Virus record (IMG/VR): IMGVR_UViG_2648501500_000009
Strand: one strand, 5' to 3'
DNA: 18,660 bases
Origin: a virus
Taxonomy: Duplodnaviria; Heunggongvirae; Uroviricota; Caudoviricetes
In this document: in pieces, positions 1,003-7,592 of the stretch
Layout: each line of letters starts with the position of its first letter
How positions within the stretch are numbered: the stretch's first letter is position 1
Made by a program: the position numbers and the translations under genes
Notes under the pieces: generated by a model
What the model was told of the DNA's origin: nothing
Databases searched by the model: none
Seen by the model: the letters and a program-made list of their open reading frames with translations, nothing else

Positions 1003-1343
1003 CAGTTCACCACCTGCTCAATCGTACAGCTGAAATCACTGTACCGGGCATTATCCGTGACACTCCACTCACGGCACACAACCCTCACCGTCCGGTTATG
1101 TTTCGGCGGTCGCCACAAAAAGGCACGGTAACCACCATGCCACGATAAAAACTCTTCCAGCCAGCGCCGGGTTGACTCATCCGTCACCCGGAACACCGCC
1201 TGAAACGTCTTCAGTTGAGGATTCAGCCCTGTGGGGCGGCGCTGTTCATAACCGTCACCAAACCGCACCCTCACCACCGACGGCTTCTCACTCACCTGCA
1301 TCCCTTCACGCGGGACCAGATGCAGCGTTTTTATCTCAGCCAC
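1002..1343 (-). CDS. M: Minor tail protein M
   Basis: 113 aa, positioned between tape measure and L as in lambda; start overlaps the 3' end of H. Confidence 0.85.
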   Translation of the reverse strand: MAEIKTLHLVPREGMQVSEKPSVVRVRFGDGYEQRRPTGLNPQLKTFQAVFRVTDESTRRWLEEFLSWHGGYRAFLWRPPKHNRTVRVVCREWSVTDNARYSDFSCTIEQVVN

Positions 1344-4300
1344 TCAGCATTCCTCCGTCACGTCGCATGGACAGCATCACCGCCTGCACCCGCTGGTCAA
1401 TCAGCTGCACAAGACTGCCTGCCGCCTCCGGCCCTATCTGGCCATTAGTCCCGTCATTCTGAATGGCGATATGGTAGACCGGGGAATACACCAGACCCGC
1501 ACTGCCGTTCATACTACCCACCGCGCGCACACCCAGCGAGCCATCCGCCGCCCGCGTCAGAGGCATAATGGCTTCAGGTCCGGCCTCCCCCATCAGCCCG
1601 GCCCCTTTTGCAAAGGCAAAGTACGTGGGCGTATCCACAATACTGTTGCTGTACGCACTCAGGTTTGCCGAGGTATACACGCCGCCTTTTGCATTGGCCA
1701 CCGCTCCGCCCAGCCAGTCACCAATGCTGCCGAGAAATCCTCCCGCACCGGACATACCGTTTGCCGCCGTCTTAATTCCGTTGACAATCGCGGCATTCAT
1801 AAGAACTTTTGATATTTCCTGCAGCACTGATGAGGCCCAGCTGCGCCATTCCACTTTATTTCCGTTCAGCATCTCCGTGATGTTATTCACCATCCCTGAG
1901 ATACCCTCCGTCGCAAGCTGTGCTGCCTGTGAGGCGTAATCGGACGCATTATCCACCCAGTTACTGAATCCCTCCTGCAGCCCTTTCTGCCAGTCCGCAC
2001 GCTGCGCATCCGATTCGGCATAAAAGGCTTCCTGCTCTTTCAGACGTTCACTCAGATACTGTGCATTCTGCGCCAGAGCCTGTCTGTAAAAATCCTCACT
2101 GATATCCCCGGTCTGATACTGAGACTGAAGGTCCGCATCCTTCTGGCGGAAGCTGTCGCGGATCTGCTGCAACTCCCGCATGCGTTCTCTGGCTCGTTCC
2201 CCCTGCCCGTACCCCAGCAGTTCAGCATCATTCGACGCACGCGCAGCCGCATTCTCATTCTTCAGTGTCTCTTCCCGGGATCGCAACTGTTCCCGGATTT
2301 TTTGCTGGTCAATCAGGGCCGCATTACGCAGCAGCTCCTGCTTCTGCATCTCCGTCAGGGTTTTCAGTTCGCCCTGCGCAGTCTGGTATTTCAGCTTCGC
2401 CAGCTCTGTATTCTGCCCCACCAGTGCCAGTTGCTCTTTCTGCTGCTTCAGCAGCCGGGAAAAACTGTCTTCCGCTTTTTCCGTCTCTGATTTTCCACCC
2501 CGGGATTTGGGTTTATTCGCCTCGTTATTGCGCCAGGCTTCCAGGGCATTACTGATATAACGTTGTCTCGCCTCCTGATACGGATCACCCACAAAACCGA
2601 GGTCATCCGCCGCATACCCCAGCCGGACACGCTCTTTTTCTTCCCCTTTCAGTCTGGACAGGGCCAGCTCACGCTCTGTTTTTGTCAGGGCACTCTGCTG
2701 TTTATCATCCAGGGTGGCCTGTGGCAGCCGTAACGGCACATTCACCAGTCCCTGCCGCTGCTGAAGCAGTTCATTCCCCAGCCCCAGCAGACGGTTAAAT
2801 TCCGTATGCTGAACATTCATCTGCAGCAATGCCTGGTATGCTCTGTTCTGCTCTGCTGCCTCCTCGCGTATCCTCGCCACACGGTTGTATTCCAGTGACG
2901 CCAGAGCTTCCTGTACAGACTTCGCCTTTTCCTGCATCTGTGTCAGTCGTGACTGTTCAACCGCCAGTTTGCCAGTTGCCTCCGCAAGGCCGTGGGTTAT
3001 AATCTCCACACCTGAACCACCCTGTGGATTTTCCTGCAGCCAGCGCTGATAGTCAGCAATCTGTGTTTTCAGTCCCCGGACTTTACTTTCCTGCTCAGCA
3101 ATCAGACGATTCTGCTCTTCCAGTGCCTCGCGAGTTTTACCCTCATTATCAGCCAGTTCCGGAAGGGTCATTCCCGGTACCTTTGCCCGGATTTCATCAA
3201 TCGTCGATGCATACTGACGGGCGGACTCCCTGGCCTGTTCCTGATTCTGGTACACCGTGTACCAGGCACCGGCTCCCAGCATCAGTAAACCGGGTATCCC
3301 GCCGACAAGCGAAAGCAGGGATGCCGCGCCACTTTTCAGCATTCCCGTAACCGACGTGGCATTCTCCAGCGCCTTCCTCGAGGCCGCCACCGCCTGATTC
3401 GACTGTACCAGTGCGGCATTGGCCACAATCATGGCCCGGCGTTTTGCGACGGCATTCTGTGTGGCCAGCGCCTCCGCACTGCTATTTCTGGCCAGTGCAA
3501 GTTCAGCCTGTGCCAGTTGCCAGGCACGTTCTGCCGCCAGCGCGTCAGCTGCCGCCTTACGCTGCACCTGAACAGCCGCATCTGCCTGTGCGGCTGCAAG
3601 GGCAACCGTCCCGGACTTCGCCGCGATCAGCTCTGTGGTGGCCTTTCCCACGCCTGCGGCCATATTGCCAAAGTACCGGGCCACCCCGACGGCAACCAGC
3701 GCCCCCGCGGCTGTTGCCACATTATCAATATTACCGGCAACACCGTTCAGCACGCCGGAGAGCGTTTTCGTCGCTCCGCTGGCTTCATTCGCGCCACCCA
3801 CCCAGGCCATAAAGGCGTTTTCCACCTTTGTGATCCCGTCAGAGACCGTTTCCGGCATGGCGGCATATTCATCACGCAATACCCCCAGCTGGCTGATTAA
3901 CGCAGGAACGACTTTATCCGCCGTCAGTTTGCCGTCGTCCGCCATCGCCTTAAGGTCTTTACGGGCCACGCCCATACCCGCAGCCAGTGCACGTATGATC
4001 CGGTCTCCGCTTTCATTGACCGAATTAAATTCCTCACCCCGTAACACACCCTGTGCCAGCGCCTGGCTGAACTGGGTGATCACCGAGCCCGCCTCTGCCG
4101 TACTGGCACCGGATATTTTCAGCCCTGTCGAAATGGCCTCCGTCACCTTCAGTACATCACCGGCACTGTAACCATATTCACGCATTGAGGCAGCCGAACG
4201 GGCAAACAGGGCCGCATTATCCGAAAATGCCGTGCCTGTCCGCTGGCTGATATCCATCAGCACTTTCTGTGATGACGAAAATTCATCAGATGACTGCGAC

Positions 4301-4602
4301 GCCTGTTTCAGACGGGCATTCACGGAACTCCACTCATCAGCCAGTGAAATCAGGTGTCCGGTGGCAAAGGCACCGGCAAATGCGCCAGCCATTCCGACAG
4401 CAGAACCGCGAATTTCCGTCAACTGGCTGTTCAGTTCTGCCAGGGCACGTCGCTGCTCCCGGGCTGCCGCAGCGGCCTGACGCCCGCCATTCTGCAGGGT
4501 CCGGTAATATTCACTGCCCATACGGGACGCCCGCTGGATCTCCGACTGGAATGACTGTGAATTTGCCGAAATTTTGATAATCAGTTCACGTAACGTCGCC
4601 AT
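1336..4602 (-). CDS. H: Tail tape measure protein (lambda gpH family), 1088 aa
   Basis: Long Ala/Gln/Glu-rich coiled-coil protein; C-terminus IAIQNDGTNGQIGPEAAG...MRRDGGMLSG matches the lambda gpH C-terminus (NNDGTNGQIGP...MRDGGLFSGGGR); RBS GGAGAAAGG upstream of ATG at 4602. Confidence 0.9.
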   Translation of the reverse strand: MATLRELIIKISANSQSFQSEIQRASRMGSEYYRTLQNGGRQAAAAAREQRRALAELNSQLTEIRGSAVGMAGAFAGAFATGHLISLADEWSSVNARLKQASQSSDEFSSSQKVLMDISQRTGTAFSDNAALFARSAASMREYGYSAGDVLKVTEAISTGLKISGASTAEAGSVITQFSQALAQGVLRGEEFNSVNESGDRIIRALAAGMGVARKDLKAMADDGKLTADKVVPALISQLGVLRDEYAAMPETVSDGITKVENAFMAWVGGANEASGATKTLSGVLNGVAGNIDNVATAAGALVAVGVARYFGNMAAGVGKATTELIAAKSGTVALAAAQADAAVQVQRKAAADALAAERAWQLAQAELALARNSSAEALATQNAVAKRRAMIVANAALVQSNQAVAASRKALENATSVTGMLKSGAASLLSLVGGIPGLLMLGAGAWYTVYQNQEQARESARQYASTIDEIRAKVPGMTLPELADNEGKTREALEEQNRLIAEQESKVRGLKTQIADYQRWLQENPQGGSGVEIITHGLAEATGKLAVEQSRLTQMQEKAKSVQEALASLEYNRVARIREEAAEQNRAYQALLQMNVQHTEFNRLLGLGNELLQQRQGLVNVPLRLPQATLDDKQQSALTKTERELALSRLKGEEKERVRLGYAADDLGFVGDPYQEARQRYISNALEAWRNNEANKPKSRGGKSETEKAEDSFSRLLKQQKEQLALVGQNTELAKLKYQTAQGELKTLTEMQKQELLRNAALIDQQKIREQLRSREETLKNENAAARASNDAELLGYGQGERARERMRELQQIRDSFRQKDADLQSQYQTGDISEDFYRQALAQNAQYLSERLKEQEAFYAESDAQRADWQKGLQEGFSNWVDNASDYASQAAQLATEGISGMVNNITEMLNGNKVEWRSWASSVLQEISKVLMNAAIVNGIKTAANGMSGAGGFLGSIGDWLGGAVANAKGGVYTSANLSAYSNSIVDTPTYFAFAKGAGLMGEAGPEAIMPLTRAADGSLGVRAVGSMNGSAGLVYSPVYHIAIQNDGTNGQIGPEAAGSLVQLIDQRVQAVMLSMRRDGGMLSG

Positions 4603-4616
4603 TCACCTTTCTCCGG

Positions 4617-4644
4617 GCAAAAAAAACCTGCCACAGCAGGTTTT
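4617..4644 (-). terminator. Intrinsic-terminator-like hairpin between T frame and H
   Basis: Minus strand AAAACCTGC-TGTG-GCAGGTTTT followed by a T run (plus strand A8 at 4619-4626); sits between the T-frame stop (4654) and the H RBS. Confidence 0.5.
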
Positions 4645-4653
4645 CATCATTAT

Positions 4654-4967
4654 TTATGACATTGCTGCAAGGCTCAGCGCGTCTTCCAGCGCCGCAAACG
4701 GATCCACCTCCGGCTTATCCTCATCCTCGCCCCAGCAGAGCATGGCGTCCTTCAGTGCAACATTCATCCCCTGTGCCCCGAAAACCGCTTTCACGATCTG
4801 TGCATTACGGATATCCCCGCGCTCATCACCCAGCGGGGATACCCTGTCGAACTCCATCCACATCATCGCCTCGCTCGCACTCAGGCTGTGCCGCAGTTCG
4901 GATAAGGTGCGCCCCAGACGGAGCGCAAGTCGCATCAGAAAGCGAATTTCCGGGCGGGCTACTTTTT
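4654..4967 (-). CDS. T: T portion of tail assembly chaperone fusion G-T, reached by -1 frameshift from G
   Basis: The -1 frame opens at the slippery site at the end of G and runs K-K-V-A-R-P-E-I-R-F-L-M-R-L-A-L-R-L-G... to the stop at 4654; position immediately upstream of the tape measure matches the lambda G/GT arrangement. Confidence 0.7.
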
Positions 4968-5333
4968 TCTGGCCGACTCTGCATCAGCGATCAGTTCCAG
5001 TGCCTGACGCAGCAACCGGGCATGTACCGGACCATAGACGGCCAGCACCTGCTCACGGTCGTCCGGAGTGAACACCCGTTGCAGGTCAGTATCACACAGG
5101 ACATCGCAGAACAGCGTCACATCCGCTTCCAGGTTACGGCGGGTTTTCGCCACCACCGACAGGGTATCGTCATCCTCTCCATCACCATTGAGCACTTCCT
5201 GCCACAGATACCAGGCCTCTGCCGAAGGCTCCCGCAGCACCACGCTGACATTTCTCCATTCCGGCACCTTCACCGTTTTATGACGGAACCCCGACAGTCT
5301 GGCCAGCGCCAGTGTTTTCAGATCTTTTGCCAT
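4959..5333 (-). CDS. G: Tail assembly chaperone G (124 aa, acidic)
   Basis: Position between major tail gene and tape measure; acidic small protein ending in the slippery site; start overlaps the V stop region. Confidence 0.75.
   Translation of the reverse strand: MAKDLKTLALARLSGFRHKTVKVPEWRNVSVVLREPSAEAWYLWQEVLNGDGEDDDTLSVVAKTRRNLEADVTLFCDVLCDTDLQRVFTPDDREQVLAVYGPVHARLLRQALELIADAESARKK
4962..4968 (-). promoter_or_regulatory. Programmed -1 ribosomal frameshift slippery heptamer A_AAA_AAG (G to G-T)
   Basis: The last codons of G read AGA AAA AAG TAG on the minus strand, giving X XXY YYZ = A AAA AAG (the dnaX-type slip site); the -1 frame continues open into T. Confidence 0.7.
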
Positions 5334-5338
5334 AAGCC

Positions 5339-6055
5339 TTATCCGCCCGCACCATTAACCGTTACTGTACACGCATCAGAGGTAATGCTCTGCGGCTGTT
5401 CTGCAGAATCCGTTACCTCGCAGGTATAAGCCCCCTTATCACCTGACTGCGTATTGGCTTTACTGAAAGTGTCAGTAGTCTGTCCCTCTACCGGCTGACC
5501 ATCCTTCTTCCAGGCGTGTTTATAAGGCGGCGTTCCCCCGTTGACACTGACTGACATTGTCAGCAGCGCACCGGTATTCACGGTAAGTGTCTTCTCCAGA
5601 TTTTTCACAAACGCCAGCGGTACCACATAGGACACCGGTTTACCCTTCAGGCGAAGTGAAAACGTTGCAGCCACCACGCCGTTGGTACCGGATGACCAGG
5701 TGTGCTGACGCACTTCCGCCAGGAACTTAAAGCCCTTACCGGACGGAAACTGCACCTTAAACGCATACACCGTGTCATTGTCATAGGCATCACGCAGGGC
5801 GTTCTGGGCCTGATTCAGATAAAAATTACCCGACATGGAAATCTCGGACGACGCCCCCAGACCGTTGATGTTCTCCTGCTCTGTGGAGCAGAGCGTGGTC
5901 ACATCAATATCCTGTTTCTGACCGGCGGTGAACTGGACTTCCTTGATGGTGCAGTCCAGGCGCAGATATTCCGCCTTATCCATAGTTTCAGCAGTCGCCG
6001 GGGCAGATGAAATCATCACCTGCGTCAGCTGTGAGCGTTCATACAAAGCAGACAT
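5339..6055 (-). CDS. V: Major tail protein V with C-terminal Ig-like domain (238 aa from the RBS-supported ATG)
   Basis: AGGAGG-containing RBS (tcaggaggcagaATG) precedes MSALYERSQ...; the ORF-track start at 6124 is a GTG extension that runs through a terminator hairpin. C-terminal ~80 aa (PPYKHAWKKDGQPV...GAYTCEVTDSA) has an I-set Ig-like signature as on lambda gpV. Confidence 0.8.
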   Translation of the reverse strand: MSALYERSQLTQVMISSAPATAETMDKAEYLRLDCTIKEVQFTAGQKQDIDVTTLCSTEQENINGLGASSEISMSGNFYLNQAQNALRDAYDNDTVYAFKVQFPSGKGFKFLAEVRQHTWSSGTNGVVAATFSLRLKGKPVSYVVPLAFVKNLEKTLTVNTGALLTMSVSVNGGTPPYKHAWKKDGQPVEGQTTDTFSKANTQSGDKGAYTCEVTDSAEQPQSITSDACTVTVNGAGG

Positions 6056-6068
6056 TCTGCCTCCTGAT

Positions 6069-6093
6069 AATAAAAAACCCGCACGCGGCGGGG
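6069..6093 (-). terminator. Intrinsic-terminator-like hairpin just upstream of V RBS
   Basis: Minus strand CCCGC-CGCGT-GCGGG followed by TTTTTTATT, located between the stop of the upstream gene (6121) and the V start. Confidence 0.5.
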
Positions 6094-6120
6094 TATGGGT
6101 TTTGTAGAAAAAAGAAAAAG

Positions 6121-6465
6121 TCACACCGTGACCTGAAACTCCAGGGTTGCACGGTAACAGCGGTTTTCCGGAATATAGTCCTGCATTTCACTGACGGATC
6201 CCGGGGCCAGCAGCATTATGGCTTCACGGGCGTCCTGACGTATCTGACGCGCCTGCGTCACAGTCCCGGCATAAACGTCTATCTGCACCGACACTGAGGA
6301 CTCCGCCTGCCCGCCCATCACGTCCGCCGACACCGATGAAATCAGGCTGAAAACCACCCACGGAAGCGCCACCGACGGCCTGCCATCCAGCAGGGGGACC
6401 ACATACGGGTACACCTGCCCGCCGGCAAGATGCGCCAGATGAGGATACAAATCCGCCTCCGTCAT
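6121..6465 (-). CDS. Tail terminator / tail completion-like protein (positional analogue of lambda gpU)
   Basis: 114 aa, immediately upstream of the major tail gene and translationally coupled (start overlaps the preceding stop); family assignment (DUF3168-like) is from general resemblance only. Confidence 0.55.
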   Translation of the reverse strand: MTEADLYPHLAHLAGGQVYPYVVPLLDGRPSVALPWVVFSLISSVSADVMGGQAESSVSVQIDVYAGTVTQARQIRQDAREAIMLLAPGSVSEMQDYIPENRCYRATLEFQVTV

Positions 6466-7265: not shown

Positions 7266-7592
7266 TCATAACACCGTCGGACAACGCAAATCGTAAATCA
7301 GCACGGACACAGAAAACGGCAGTTCCCCCTGCACGAGGTCTTCCCGCTCAGCAAGATCCGGATTCCGGTACAGCATCCCGGTCAGTCGCATGGCAGCCCC
7401 CTTCATCCGGGTTAATGCCTCGCCCGGGATCAGCTCACCGTCCTCACGAATCACTTTATCCCGGCTGCCCTGAATGTAGGCCAGCAGCACGGCGGTAGCC
7501 TGACGAACCTTGTCCATCAGCATGTCATCATCCGCGTCATGGTCAACACGCAGATGTGCCTTGATCTCTTCCAGTGTCAGTAATGCCGTCAT
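7266..7592 (-). CDS. Head-tail connector protein (HK97 gp6-like)
   Basis: 108 aa; N-terminus MTALLTLEEIKAHLRVDHDADDDML resembles the gp6-like connector family signature (L-x-E-x-K-x-H-L-R-V-D); start overlaps the stop of the upstream gene (ATGA). Confidence 0.7.
   Translation of the reverse strand: MTALLTLEEIKAHLRVDHDADDDMLMDKVRQATAVLLAYIQGSRDKVIREDGELIPGEALTRMKGAAMRLTGMLYRNPDLAEREDLVQGELPFSVSVLIYDLRCPTVL

What the first reader, a model, noticed from the sequence alone, without database searches (positions are those of the whole stretch)
4950..4975. Programmed -1 frameshift site A_AAA_AAG at the end of G, producing the G-T chaperone fusion
The last two sense codons of G and its stop read AGA AAA AAG TAG. 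Slipping -1 on A_AAA_AAG reads K-K-V-A-R-P-E-I-R-F-L-M-R-L... and continues for about 100 codons to a stop at 4654, just before the tape measure gene. This is the conserved siphovirus tail-chaperone frameshift, but with the dnaX-type heptamer rather than the lambda G_GGA_AAG, and the slip site sits on the final codons of G.
Basis: partly seen in the sequence, partly recalled or inferred. Interest (0 to 1): 0.45.

Follow-up and report, generated by a model that had tools for sequence, protein, structure and literature searches.

The report
Known phage tail-chaperone G-T frameshift site

Summary
On the minus strand, gene G (5333..4959, 124 aa) ends AGA AAA AAG TAG. The heptamer A_AAA_AAG is 4968..4962. 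The -1 frame reads KKVARPEIRFLMRL… and stays open for 102 codons to TAA 4656..4654, 52 nt before the tape-measure ATG (4602).

G belongs to the HK97 gp13 chaperone family (Pfam PF06222, PDB 2OB9). The -1 ORF is a lambda T domain (PF06223). A PHROG profile of fused 224-aa G-T proteins covers both parts contiguously.

T lies in the -1 frame with a shift-prone site at the same alignment position in 77 of 80 species-level relatives and 79 of 80 IMG/VR relatives. In 31 of the 80 the site is A_AAA_AAG directly followed by a stop.

No downstream RNA structure or upstream Shine-Dalgarno stimulator is supported. The ATG used to annotate T separately has the weakest ribosome-binding site of 14 gene starts.

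The site is already known. The 75-nt insert tested by Antonov et al. 2013 (PMC3711429, Table S2, "Phage_TAC") is identical to window 4988..4914 and gave 7% ± 0.79 -1 frameshifting in E. coli. Sharma et al. 2014 list the same gene (ECs1801) as a "true" case.

What remains is an annotation gap: databases list G and T as separate proteins.

The parts
4959..5333 (-). Gene G: tail assembly chaperone, 124 aa, zero-frame product (14.1 kDa)
   Evidence: ORF list and translation. Pfam PF06222 Phage_TAC_1 E=2.3e-61 over the full length. PHROG 344 'tail assembly chaperone'. The A1 profile matches PDB 2OB9 'Tail assembly chaperone' at E=4e-53. 63% identical to the HK446/HK97 gp13 type. 100% identical to Sakai ECs1801.
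4962..4968 (-). Slippery heptamer A_AAA_AAG (the last base of AGA, then the Lys-Lys codons AAA AAG)
   Evidence: Sequence. It is the only one of six coding-strand AAAAAAG copies in the X_XXY_YYZ phase. The same heptamer is at the same alignment position in 46 of 80 species-level relatives. Measured at 7% -1 frameshifting in E. coli for the identical 75-nt context (PMC3711429 Table S2).
4959..4961 (-). Zero-frame stop codon TAG of G, directly abutting the heptamer. Its TA also belongs to the -1-frame Val codon GTA.
   Evidence: Sequence. A stop directly follows the shift site in 48 of 77 relatives with the -1 arrangement, including all 13 that have only an A_AAG tetramer. Any stimulatory role is inferred, not shown.
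4654..4968 (-). -1 frame extension (T domain): 104 codons from the slip site plus TAA. It is expressed only as the C-terminal part of the 226-aa G-T fusion.
   Evidence: Translation. Pfam PF06223 Phage_tail_T E=6.2e-19. PHROG 14766 (a 224-position profile of fused proteins) matches G at positions 1-122 and this product at 123-222. Residues upstream of the first Met are conserved: P128 invariant, F132 and L133 at least 90%.
4933..4935 (-). ATG that database records use as the start of a separate 93-aa 'tail assembly protein T'. Most likely an internal Met codon of G-T, not a start.
   Evidence: Records annotate T as a separate CDS from this ATG. Its anti-SD pairing is -3.5 kcal/mol. That is the weakest of 14 gene starts in the operon (-5.8 to -12.8) and weaker than the background mean of -4.46. 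Burkholderia phage KS9 lacks this Met and has an annotated joined CDS.
5339..6124 (-). Major tail (tube) protein with a C-terminal Ig-like domain. By analogy with lambda it is the partner bound by the T domain.
   Evidence: Pfam Phage_tail_2 passes its curated cut-off; Phage_TTP_11 matches just below its cut-off. Ig_2 and I-set also match. The gene is immediately upstream of G. The binding role comes from lambda work summarised in PMC5009743 and was not tested here.
1336..4602 (-). Tape measure protein (1088 aa). By analogy with lambda it is the partner coated by G and the G part of G-T.
   Evidence: Pfam Phage_HK97_TLTM 1.9e-75, TMP_3 2.9e-57 and Tape_meas_lam_C 5.5e-18. It starts 52 nt after the T stop.

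Best explanation
This is the programmed -1 ribosomal frameshift site of the tail assembly chaperone pair G / G-T in a lambda-like, long-tailed Shiga-toxin-converting phage or prophage of E. coli.

Most ribosomes read AGA AAA AAG, stop at TAG and release the 124-aa chaperone G. A few percent slip back one base on A_AAA_AAG: the single E. coli tRNA-Lys re-pairs AAA to AAA and AAG to AAA. These ribosomes then read GTA GCC CGC… in the -1 frame and add a 102-residue lambda-T-like domain, giving a 226-aa, 25.4-kDa G-T fusion.

By analogy with lambda, many G molecules and a few G-T molecules coat the tape measure protein. The T domain recruits the major tail protein so that the tube polymerises to the right length. 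Neither protein ends up in the virion.

The slip needs no RNA structure or Shine-Dalgarno stimulator here.

Shown: sequence, frames, homologies, conservation, and a published 7% reporter measurement on this exact sequence.
Inferred: the binding partners, the requirement for tail assembly, and which tRNA movement occurs.
For: - Sequence and frames are as described.
- G matches Phage_TAC_1 (2e-61) and the -1 product matches Phage_tail_T (6e-19). They lie between the tube gene and the tape-measure gene.
- PHROG 14766, a profile of fused 224-aa proteins, aligns G to positions 1-122 and the -1 product to 123-222.
- PDB 2OB9 'Tail assembly chaperone' matches the G part of the A1 G-T profile at 4e-53.
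- HK97, HK446 and KS9 homologues are annotated as joined CDS 'translated due to a -1 frameshift'.
- In 77 of 80 species-level loci and 79 of 80 IMG/VR loci, T is in the -1 frame with a shift-prone site at the same column. The sites are A_AAA_AAG, A_AAA_AAC, G_GGA_AAG, G_GGA_AAC, G_GAA_AAG or xxA_AAG.
- Residues before the first Met of the T frame are conserved.
- ATG 4935 has no usable ribosome-binding site.
- One relative (L013) carries G and T fused in one frame, with the junction KKKV that the slip predicts.
- Direct experiment by others: window 4988..4914 is identical to the 'Phage_TAC' insert that gave 7% ± 0.79 -1 frameshifting in an E. coli GST-MBP reporter (PMC3711429 Table S2).
- Sharma et al. 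2014 list cluster A_AAA_AAG_25 (ECs1801, 100% identical G) as a '[true]' case.
Against: - No mass-spectrometric or western evidence for the native 25-kDa protein from an induced lysogen was found.
- The 7% figure comes from a reporter carrying a short insert.
- The requirement of G-T for tail assembly is extrapolated from lambda.
- Public annotation (PGAP, RefSeq phage records) treats T as an independent gene. The fused sequence is absent from a collection of about 15 billion proteins. This reflects gene callers, not evidence against the fusion.
Confidence: 0.95

Rival explanations
1. Same fusion product, different tRNA movement. The slip happens after translocation, when tRNA-Lys on AAG is in the P site and the slowly decoded stop UAG is in the A site (a 'shifty stop', single-tRNA slip on A_AAG). 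This would replace a tandem slip of both Lys tRNAs. The abutting stop codon would then be the stimulator that raises the level above that of a bare heptamer.
For: - The stop directly follows the shift site in 48 of 77 relatives. It does so in all 13 relatives that have only the tetramer A_AAG with a non-slippery P-site codon such as GCA.
- Bare A_AAA_AAG gave 0.29% in one reporter (PMC4066793 Table S3). This sequence, with its stop, gave 7% in another (PMC3711429).
- No RNA structure or SD is available to explain the difference.
- 'Shifty stops' are an established concept (Weiss et al. 1987, cited in PMC5009743).
Against: - The two reporter systems are not comparable.
- The mEp390-type site G_GGA_AAG CCG TAA, with one sense codon between site and stop, gave almost the same value, 6%.
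- 15 relatives have the heptamer 8-10 codons before the stop, and lambda has it 5 codons before.
- Lineages are not independent, so the counts are not a statistical test.
- G has to stop somewhere close to the junction anyway.
Confidence: 0.3
2. T is made as a free 93-aa protein by independent initiation at ATG 4935, as the databases annotate it. The heptamer would be incidental.
For: - An ATG exists 9 codons into the -1 frame, and the Met is at least 90% conserved.
- PGAP and the phage records annotate a separate 'tail assembly protein T'.
- In Klebsiella-type relatives an ATG lies 3 nt after the G stop (TAAAAATG), which could allow re-initiation.
Against: - Anti-SD pairing upstream of ATG 4935 is -3.5 kcal/mol, the weakest of 14 starts and below the background mean.
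- The -1-frame residues upstream of this Met are conserved (P128 invariant, F132 and L133).
- KS9 has no Met there.
- The frame relation and a shifty site are conserved in 77 of 80 species.
- Frameshifting on this sequence was measured at 7%.
- In lambda, T is made only as G-T (PMC5009743).
Confidence: 0.04
3. The fusion arises by transcriptional slippage. RNA polymerase would add an extra A in the A6 run, producing an mRNA in which G and T are in frame.
For: - Homopolymeric A runs can cause RNA polymerase slippage.
- The 733R4-type relatives have A8 (TT AAA AAA AAG).
- Three of 160 relatives differ by one A in the run, which shows that the tract is indel-prone at some level.
Against: - The run here is only six A.
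- Antonov et al. describe transcriptional realignment for runs of more than seven A and ribosomal frameshifting for A_AAA_AAG.
- Relatives use G_GGA_AAG, G_GAA_AAG or GCA_AAG, which have no long homopolymer, at the same position with the same frame relation.
- The phase of the heptamer relative to the G frame is conserved. That matters for ribosomes and not for RNA polymerase.
Confidence: 0.03

Closest known systems
Phage lambda G / G-T programmed -1 frameshift (Levin et al. 1993; Xu et al. 2004, 2013, 2014, as summarised in PMC5009743)
   Same: - Two ORFs lie between the major tail gene and the tape-measure gene.
- The downstream ORF is in the -1 frame and has a lambda T domain (Pfam Phage_tail_T).
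- The slip is on an X_XXA_AAG heptamer using tRNA-Lys.
- The level is low (a few percent).
- No strong RNA stimulator is present.
   Different: - The heptamer is A_AAA_AAG instead of G_GGA_AAG.
- The site abuts the stop instead of lying five codons before it.
- The G part belongs to a different Pfam family: Phage_TAC_1, with no hit to lambda's G family in the scan.
- The measured level is 7%, against a G:G-T molar ratio of about 30:1 (about 3%) in lambda. The assays differ.
HK97 gp13 / gp14 (also HK446 and HK022-like phages); structure PDB 2OB9
   Same: - Same G family (63% identity to the HK446 homologue) and same T family.
- The fusion is the same length class (224 aa against 226 aa).
- The homologue is annotated 'translated due to a -1 frameshift'.
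- A terminator-like hairpin lies just upstream of the tape-measure gene in both.
   Different: - The HK97 site is the non-canonical G_GAA_AAG, five codons before the stop.
- HK97 carries a moron gene (gp15) between G-T and H, which this phage lacks.
GeneTack 'Phage_TAC' cluster (Antonov et al. 2013, PMC3711429), which is cluster A_AAA_AAG_25 / ECs1801 of Sharma et al. 2014 (PMC4066793)
   Same: It is the same thing. The tested 75-nt insert is identical to window 4988..4914, and ECs1801 is 100% identical to this G.
   Different: Nothing differs at the site. The window comes from another copy or strain; the surrounding DNA is about 95-96% identical to Sakai Sp9.
E. coli dnaX gamma/tau frameshift signal
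   Same: Identical heptamer A_AAA_AAG, read by the same single tRNA-Lys.
   Different: - There is no SD-like element upstream (-3.0 kcal/mol).
- There is no hairpin 5-6 nt downstream.
- No Rfam frameshift element matches.
- The level is 7% rather than about 50% (the dnaX figure as cited in PMC3711429).
- The shifted product is longer, not shorter.

Membership tests
Siphovirus G / G-T tail assembly chaperone frameshift (lambda/HK97 type) | Two ORFs located between the major tail (tube) protein gene and the tape measure gene | tested here: met
   The minus-strand order is tube protein 6124..5339, G 5333..4959, T frame 4968..4654, tape measure 4602..1336.
Siphovirus G / G-T tail assembly chaperone frameshift (lambda/HK97 type) | The downstream ORF is in the -1 frame relative to the upstream one, open across the junction, and this relation is conserved in relatives | tested here: met
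   The -1 frame is open from 22 nt before the G stop to 102 codons after it. The relation holds in 77 of 80 species-level and 79 of 80 IMG/VR loci.
Siphovirus G / G-T tail assembly chaperone frameshift (lambda/HK97 type) | A slippery sequence in the correct phase inside the overlap, conserved in position | tested here: met
   A_AAA_AAG at 4968..4962 is in the X_XXY_YYZ phase. A shift-prone site is at the same position in every one of the 77 relatives that have the -1 arrangement; it falls in the same alignment column in the 10-sequence alignment.
Siphovirus G / G-T tail assembly chaperone frameshift (lambda/HK97 type) | Sequence homology of the two parts to known chaperone and T families | tested here: met
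   PF06222 at 2.3e-61 and PF06223 at 6.2e-19. PHROG 14766 fused profile. PDB 2OB9 at 4e-53.
Siphovirus G / G-T tail assembly chaperone frameshift (lambda/HK97 type) | The downstream ORF lacks its own translation start signal | tested here: met
   ATG 4935 has the weakest anti-SD pairing of 14 starts, -3.5 kcal/mol, below the background mean. Residues upstream of it are conserved in the -1 frame.
Siphovirus G / G-T tail assembly chaperone frameshift (lambda/HK97 type) | A fusion protein is actually produced at a low, fixed percentage | not testable with these tools
   Published for the identical sequence: 7% ± 0.79 in an E. coli GST-MBP reporter (PMC3711429 Table S2). The native protein in induced lysogens was not found in the literature searched.
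Siphovirus G / G-T tail assembly chaperone frameshift (lambda/HK97 type) | G and G-T are both required, in a balanced ratio, for tail assembly and are absent from virions | not testable with these tools
   Known for lambda (PMC5009743). Inferred here.
dnaX-type frameshift signal | Heptamer A_AAA_AAG | tested here: met
dnaX-type frameshift signal | Shine-Dalgarno-like stimulator about 10 nt upstream of the heptamer | tested here: not met
   The best anti-SD duplex in the 20 nt upstream is -3.0 kcal/mol, weaker than the background mean of -4.46. Sharma et al. Table S8 lists no conserved SD for this cluster.
dnaX-type frameshift signal | Stable stem-loop 5-6 nt downstream of the heptamer | tested here: not met
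   - Fold z-scores are +0.21 (47 nt) and -1.11 (82 nt).
- RNAalifold finds no consensus pairs in 26 diverse relatives.
- The only local hairpin starts 35 nt downstream and shows 0 compensatory changes.
- No Rfam frameshift element matches.
- Sharma et al. report ΔΔG 0.020 ± 0.023 for this cluster.

The most novel reading that the evidence does not exclude
In this chaperone family the zero-frame stop codon that directly abuts the shift site may be the stimulatory element. It would replace RNA structure by pausing the ribosome with tRNA-Lys on A_AAG in the P site. It would thereby set the G:G-T ratio, and it might couple that ratio to release-factor availability late in infection. This would explain three observations: relatives with only an A_AAG tetramer always have the stop adjacent (13 of 13); 48 of 77 relatives have it adjacent; and this sequence gives 7% while a bare heptamer gives about 0.3% in another reporter.
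Probability: 0.3. Interest if true: 0.3.

Novelty: already known. Interest (0 to 1): 0.07.

Why it matters
There is little new biology here. G-T frameshifting is a textbook case of recoding, and this exact site has been catalogued and measured.

The practical point is annotation.
- This G/T pair is present in 1246 of 5426 complete E. coli genomes, with up to 7 copies per genome.
- It is also in at least 92 phage records.
- Everywhere it is annotated as two separate proteins.
- The real 226-aa product is absent from a collection of about 15 billion proteins.

Proteomics searches and structure or interaction predictions for EHEC prophage tails will therefore miss the G-T fusion unless it is added by hand.

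Tried and rejected
- **Downstream stimulatory structure.** Single-sequence folds of 47 and 82 nt were not better than shuffles. RNAalifold on 26 diverse relatives gave no pairs. I tested the one conserved-looking hairpin by hand (GCGCUCC-GUCU-GGGGCGC, 35 nt downstream). It is 81% paired but has 0 compensatory changes, and it sits in the strongly conserved ALRLGR coding stretch. Rejected.
- **Rfam scan of 4300..5600 at E ≤ 1.** The only result was a chance rsmX hit over the terminator-like hairpin.
- **Upstream SD-like stimulator.** None found.
- **NCBIfam scan of G and T.** No family matched.
- **Exact look-up of the fused protein.** Not in the collection.
- **Independent T initiation and transcriptional slippage.** Both considered as main routes and rejected; see the rival explanations.
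- **Counting the codon before the Lys-Lys pair as evidence for nucleotide-level selection**. Dropped, because those sequences had been selected for the heptamer, so the count is circular.
- **Literature searches for a native G-T protein in Stx phages.** No specific paper found.

Full report
**1. The observation**

Reading the minus strand and translating it confirms every detail.
- The ORF 5333..4959 encodes a 124-aa protein ending …ADAESARKK.
- Its last codons are AGA AAA AAG followed by TAG (4961..4959).
- The heptamer A_AAA_AAG lies at 4968..4962, in the X_XXY_YYZ phase.
- From the heptamer, the -1 frame reads KKVARPEIRFLMRLALRLGRT….
- That frame stays open for 102 codons beyond the G stop, to TAA at 4656..4654. 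This is 52 nt upstream of the ATG (4602) of a 1088-aa ORF.
- The conceptual fusion is 226 aa and 25.4 kDa; G alone is 14.1 kDa.

The motif AAAAAAG occurs 9 times in the window against 2.5 expected. Of the six copies inside long coding-strand ORFs, only this one is in the shift-prone phase. It also falls in the only 22 nt where both frames are open.

**2. What the genes are**

The window is the late (morphogenesis) region of a lambda-like, long-tailed Shiga-toxin-converting phage or prophage.
- The 1-kb region around the site is 99.9-100% identical to Stx2a_1447, BP-4795, Stx2 phage 1717 and many others.
- The G/T region occurs in 1246 of 5426 complete E. coli genomes, with up to 7 copies per genome.
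- Pfam assigns the neighbours to terminase, a protease-capsid fusion, portal, connectors, a tube protein with an Ig-like domain, tape measure, and M- and L-type minor tail proteins.

For the two ORFs of the finding:
- G is a full-length member of PF06222 Phage_TAC_1 (E = 2.3e-61).
- The -1 product carries PF06223 Phage_tail_T, the lambda T domain (E = 6.2e-19).
- A profile of G-T relatives matches the solved 'Tail assembly chaperone' 2OB9 over the G part at E = 4e-53.
- PHROG 14766 is a 224-position family of fused proteins. It aligns G to positions 1-122 and the -1 product to positions 123-222. The join predicted by the slip is therefore the join seen in annotated fusions.

**3. Relatives**

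I fetched 11 annotated phage loci, 80 loci from one genome per species (GTDB), and 80 IMG/VR loci. For each I located the G and T frames with tblastn.

T is in the -1 frame of G in 77 of 80 species-level loci and 79 of 80 IMG/VR loci.

| Shift site in the 80 species-level loci | Loci |
|---|---|
| A_AAA_AAG directly followed by TAG or TAA | 31 |
| A_AAA_AAG, 8-10 codons before TGA | 15 |
| A_AAA_AAC + TGA | 4 |
| G_GGA_AAG + 1 codon + TAA | 5 |
| G_GGA_AAC | 1 |
| Non-canonical G_GAA_AAG (HK97 type) | 8 |
| A_AAG tetramer only, abutting TAA | 13 |
| T not in the -1 frame | 3 |

The exceptions do not contradict the pattern.
- L012 has an indel upstream in G, but its junction is intact.
- L055 and L158 have an A-run one base shorter.
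- L013 (a Symbiopectobacterium symbiont) has G and T fused in one frame, with the junction …AKKKVTQPGMQFLM…. That is the product the slip would give.

HK97, HK446 and Burkholderia phage KS9 homologues are already annotated as joined CDS made by a -1 frameshift.

In an alignment of 10 conceptual fusions the slip site falls in one column. Residues in the -1 frame before the first Met are conserved: P128 is invariant, and F132 and L133 are at least 90% conserved. KS9 has no Met at that position.

It is not met.

**4. Stimulators**

- Folds of 47 and 82 nt downstream are no more stable than shuffles (z = +0.21 and -1.11).
- RNAalifold on 26 diverse relatives with the same heptamer-plus-stop arrangement predicts no pair at all.
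- The one locally conserved hairpin starts 35 nt downstream. It has no compensatory change and lies in the conserved ALRLGR codons.
- No Rfam frameshift element matches.
- The 20 nt upstream of the heptamer pair with the anti-SD at only -3.0 kcal/mol, weaker than the window's background mean of -4.46.
- Sharma et al. reached the same conclusion for this cluster: no conserved SD, and hairpin ΔΔG of 0.020 ± 0.023.

So 'dnaX-type' describes the heptamer only.

**5. Rivals**

*Independent initiation of T at ATG 4935.* This is how PGAP and the phage records annotate it. It is unlikely. That ATG has the weakest ribosome-binding site of 14 starts in the operon (-3.5 against -5.8 to -12.8 kcal/mol), and conservation extends upstream of it.

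*Transcriptional slippage.* This is unlikely for a run of six A. It also cannot explain the relatives that use G_GGA_AAG, G_GAA_AAG or GCA_AAG at the same place with the same phase.

*Which tRNA movement occurs.* It is undecided whether both Lys tRNAs slip together or only the P-site tRNA slips while the stop codon waits in the A site. Both give K-K-V.
- In favour of a role for the stop: it is adjacent in 48 of 77 relatives and in all 13 tetramer-only relatives. The measured values also differ: 7% here against 0.29% for a bare heptamer in another system.
- Against: the mEp390-type site, with one sense codon before the stop, gave 6%. Many relatives have the site 5-10 codons from the stop.

**6. 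Comparison with what is known**

Lambda has G_GGA_AAG five codons before the G stop, and HK97 has G_GAA_AAG five codons before its stop. [quoted passage not shown] The change of heptamer therefore has no evident functional consequence.

The site itself is already published.
- Sharma et al. 2014 list cluster A_AAA_AAG_25, 'ECs1801, tail assembly chaperone; [true]', and equate it with GeneTack cluster #10.
- ECs1801 of Sakai prophage Sp9 is 100% identical to this G, with the same junction sequence.
- Antonov et al. 2013 cloned two members of that 'Phage_TAC' cluster between GST and MBP. [quoted passage not shown] It gave 7% ± 0.79 frameshifting in E. coli.

**7. Verdict**

The novelty rating is 'already known' and interest is low.

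What remains is an annotation gap. The 226-aa product is not in a collection of about 15 billion proteins, while G and the 93-aa 'T' are each seen on 1000 or more contigs.

The only open mechanistic question is whether the abutting stop codon is the stimulator. I give this a probability of about 0.3; it would be of modest interest if true.

Noticed in passing
window 8647..8665 (minus strand), the junction of ORFs 10011..8647 and 8650..7589: The portal gene is split at a G-run.
- The window has TTC AGG GGG ATA (G5), so the 454-aa portal ORF stops at TGA. A 353-aa ORF follows in the -1 frame with an ATGA overlap.
- Sakai Sp9 has G6 and a single 859-aa ORF (ECs_1795).
- Both alleles are common in IMG/VR exact-pattern scans: 23 contigs with G5 and 37 with G6.
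- The sequenced phage BP-4795 has the split form.
- PHROGs holds both an 859-position fused family and a 331-position separate family.
- A -1 slip of tRNA-Gly on G_GGG would recreate the Sp9-type fusion (…FRG-DTEKMT…).

This could be a hypermutable homopolymer, a defect, or a second recoding site.
   Followed up: partly
window 4619..4644 (minus strand): A terminator-like hairpin with a U-run, AAAACCTGC-TGTG-GCAGGTTTTTTTT, lies between the T stop (4654) and the tape-measure ATG (4602), inside the late operon. 'Putative terminator' features are annotated at the same place in HK97 and HK446, where they follow a moron gene that is absent here. The automatic scan listed the site only on the plus strand. 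The weak Rfam rsmX hit (E = 0.61) overlaps this hairpin.
   Followed up: partly
L013 1201-1782 (Candidatus Symbiopectobacterium endolongispinus); L055 and L158: The A-run at the slip site has natural length variants.
- L013 has G and T fused in a single frame (…DAEIAKKKVTQPGMQFLM…).
- L055 (Serratia sp. L9) and L158 (IMG/VR) have one A fewer, which puts T in the +1 frame.

These could be mutations in decaying prophages or homopolymer sequencing errors.
   Followed up: partly
L006, L032-L034, L039-L041, L053, L054, L069, L071, L079 (Klebsiella, Raoultella, Pantoea, Erwinia and other prophages): Thirteen species-level relatives (11 GCA_AAG, 2 A_GAA_AAG), plus the phage-record locus L006, have no heptamer. 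They have only GCA_AAG or GAA_AAG followed at once by TAA, a single-tRNA A_AAG site with a stop in the next codon. In the Klebsiella type an in-frame ATG lies 3 nt after the stop (TAAAAATG), so termination and re-initiation is an alternative there.
   Followed up: partly
window 4654..5333, and public records: This is an annotation gap. RefSeq/PGAP and GenBank phage records annotate 'phage tail assembly chaperone' and a 93-aa 'phage tail assembly protein T' as separate CDS. One cluster member is even named 'preprotein translocase subunit SecA'. The 226-aa fusion is absent from a collection of about 15 billion proteins.
   Followed up: yes
window 5339..6124 (minus strand): The major tail (tube) protein carries a C-terminal Ig-like domain in frame (Pfam Ig_2, Ig_3 and I-set over residues about 172-256). 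Records disagree on its start: 846 nt in BP-4795, overlapping the upstream gene, against 717 nt in Sakai and the 786-nt GTG ORF here.
   Followed up: no
window 7592..8459 (minus strand): The ORF downstream of the portal contains an internal repeated stretch (about 8058..8459). It aligns at two offsets to Sakai Sp9, and it differs in length between records: 353 aa here and 461 aa in BP-4795 ORF59. There is also a weak, sub-threshold CBM_5_12 match.
   Followed up: no
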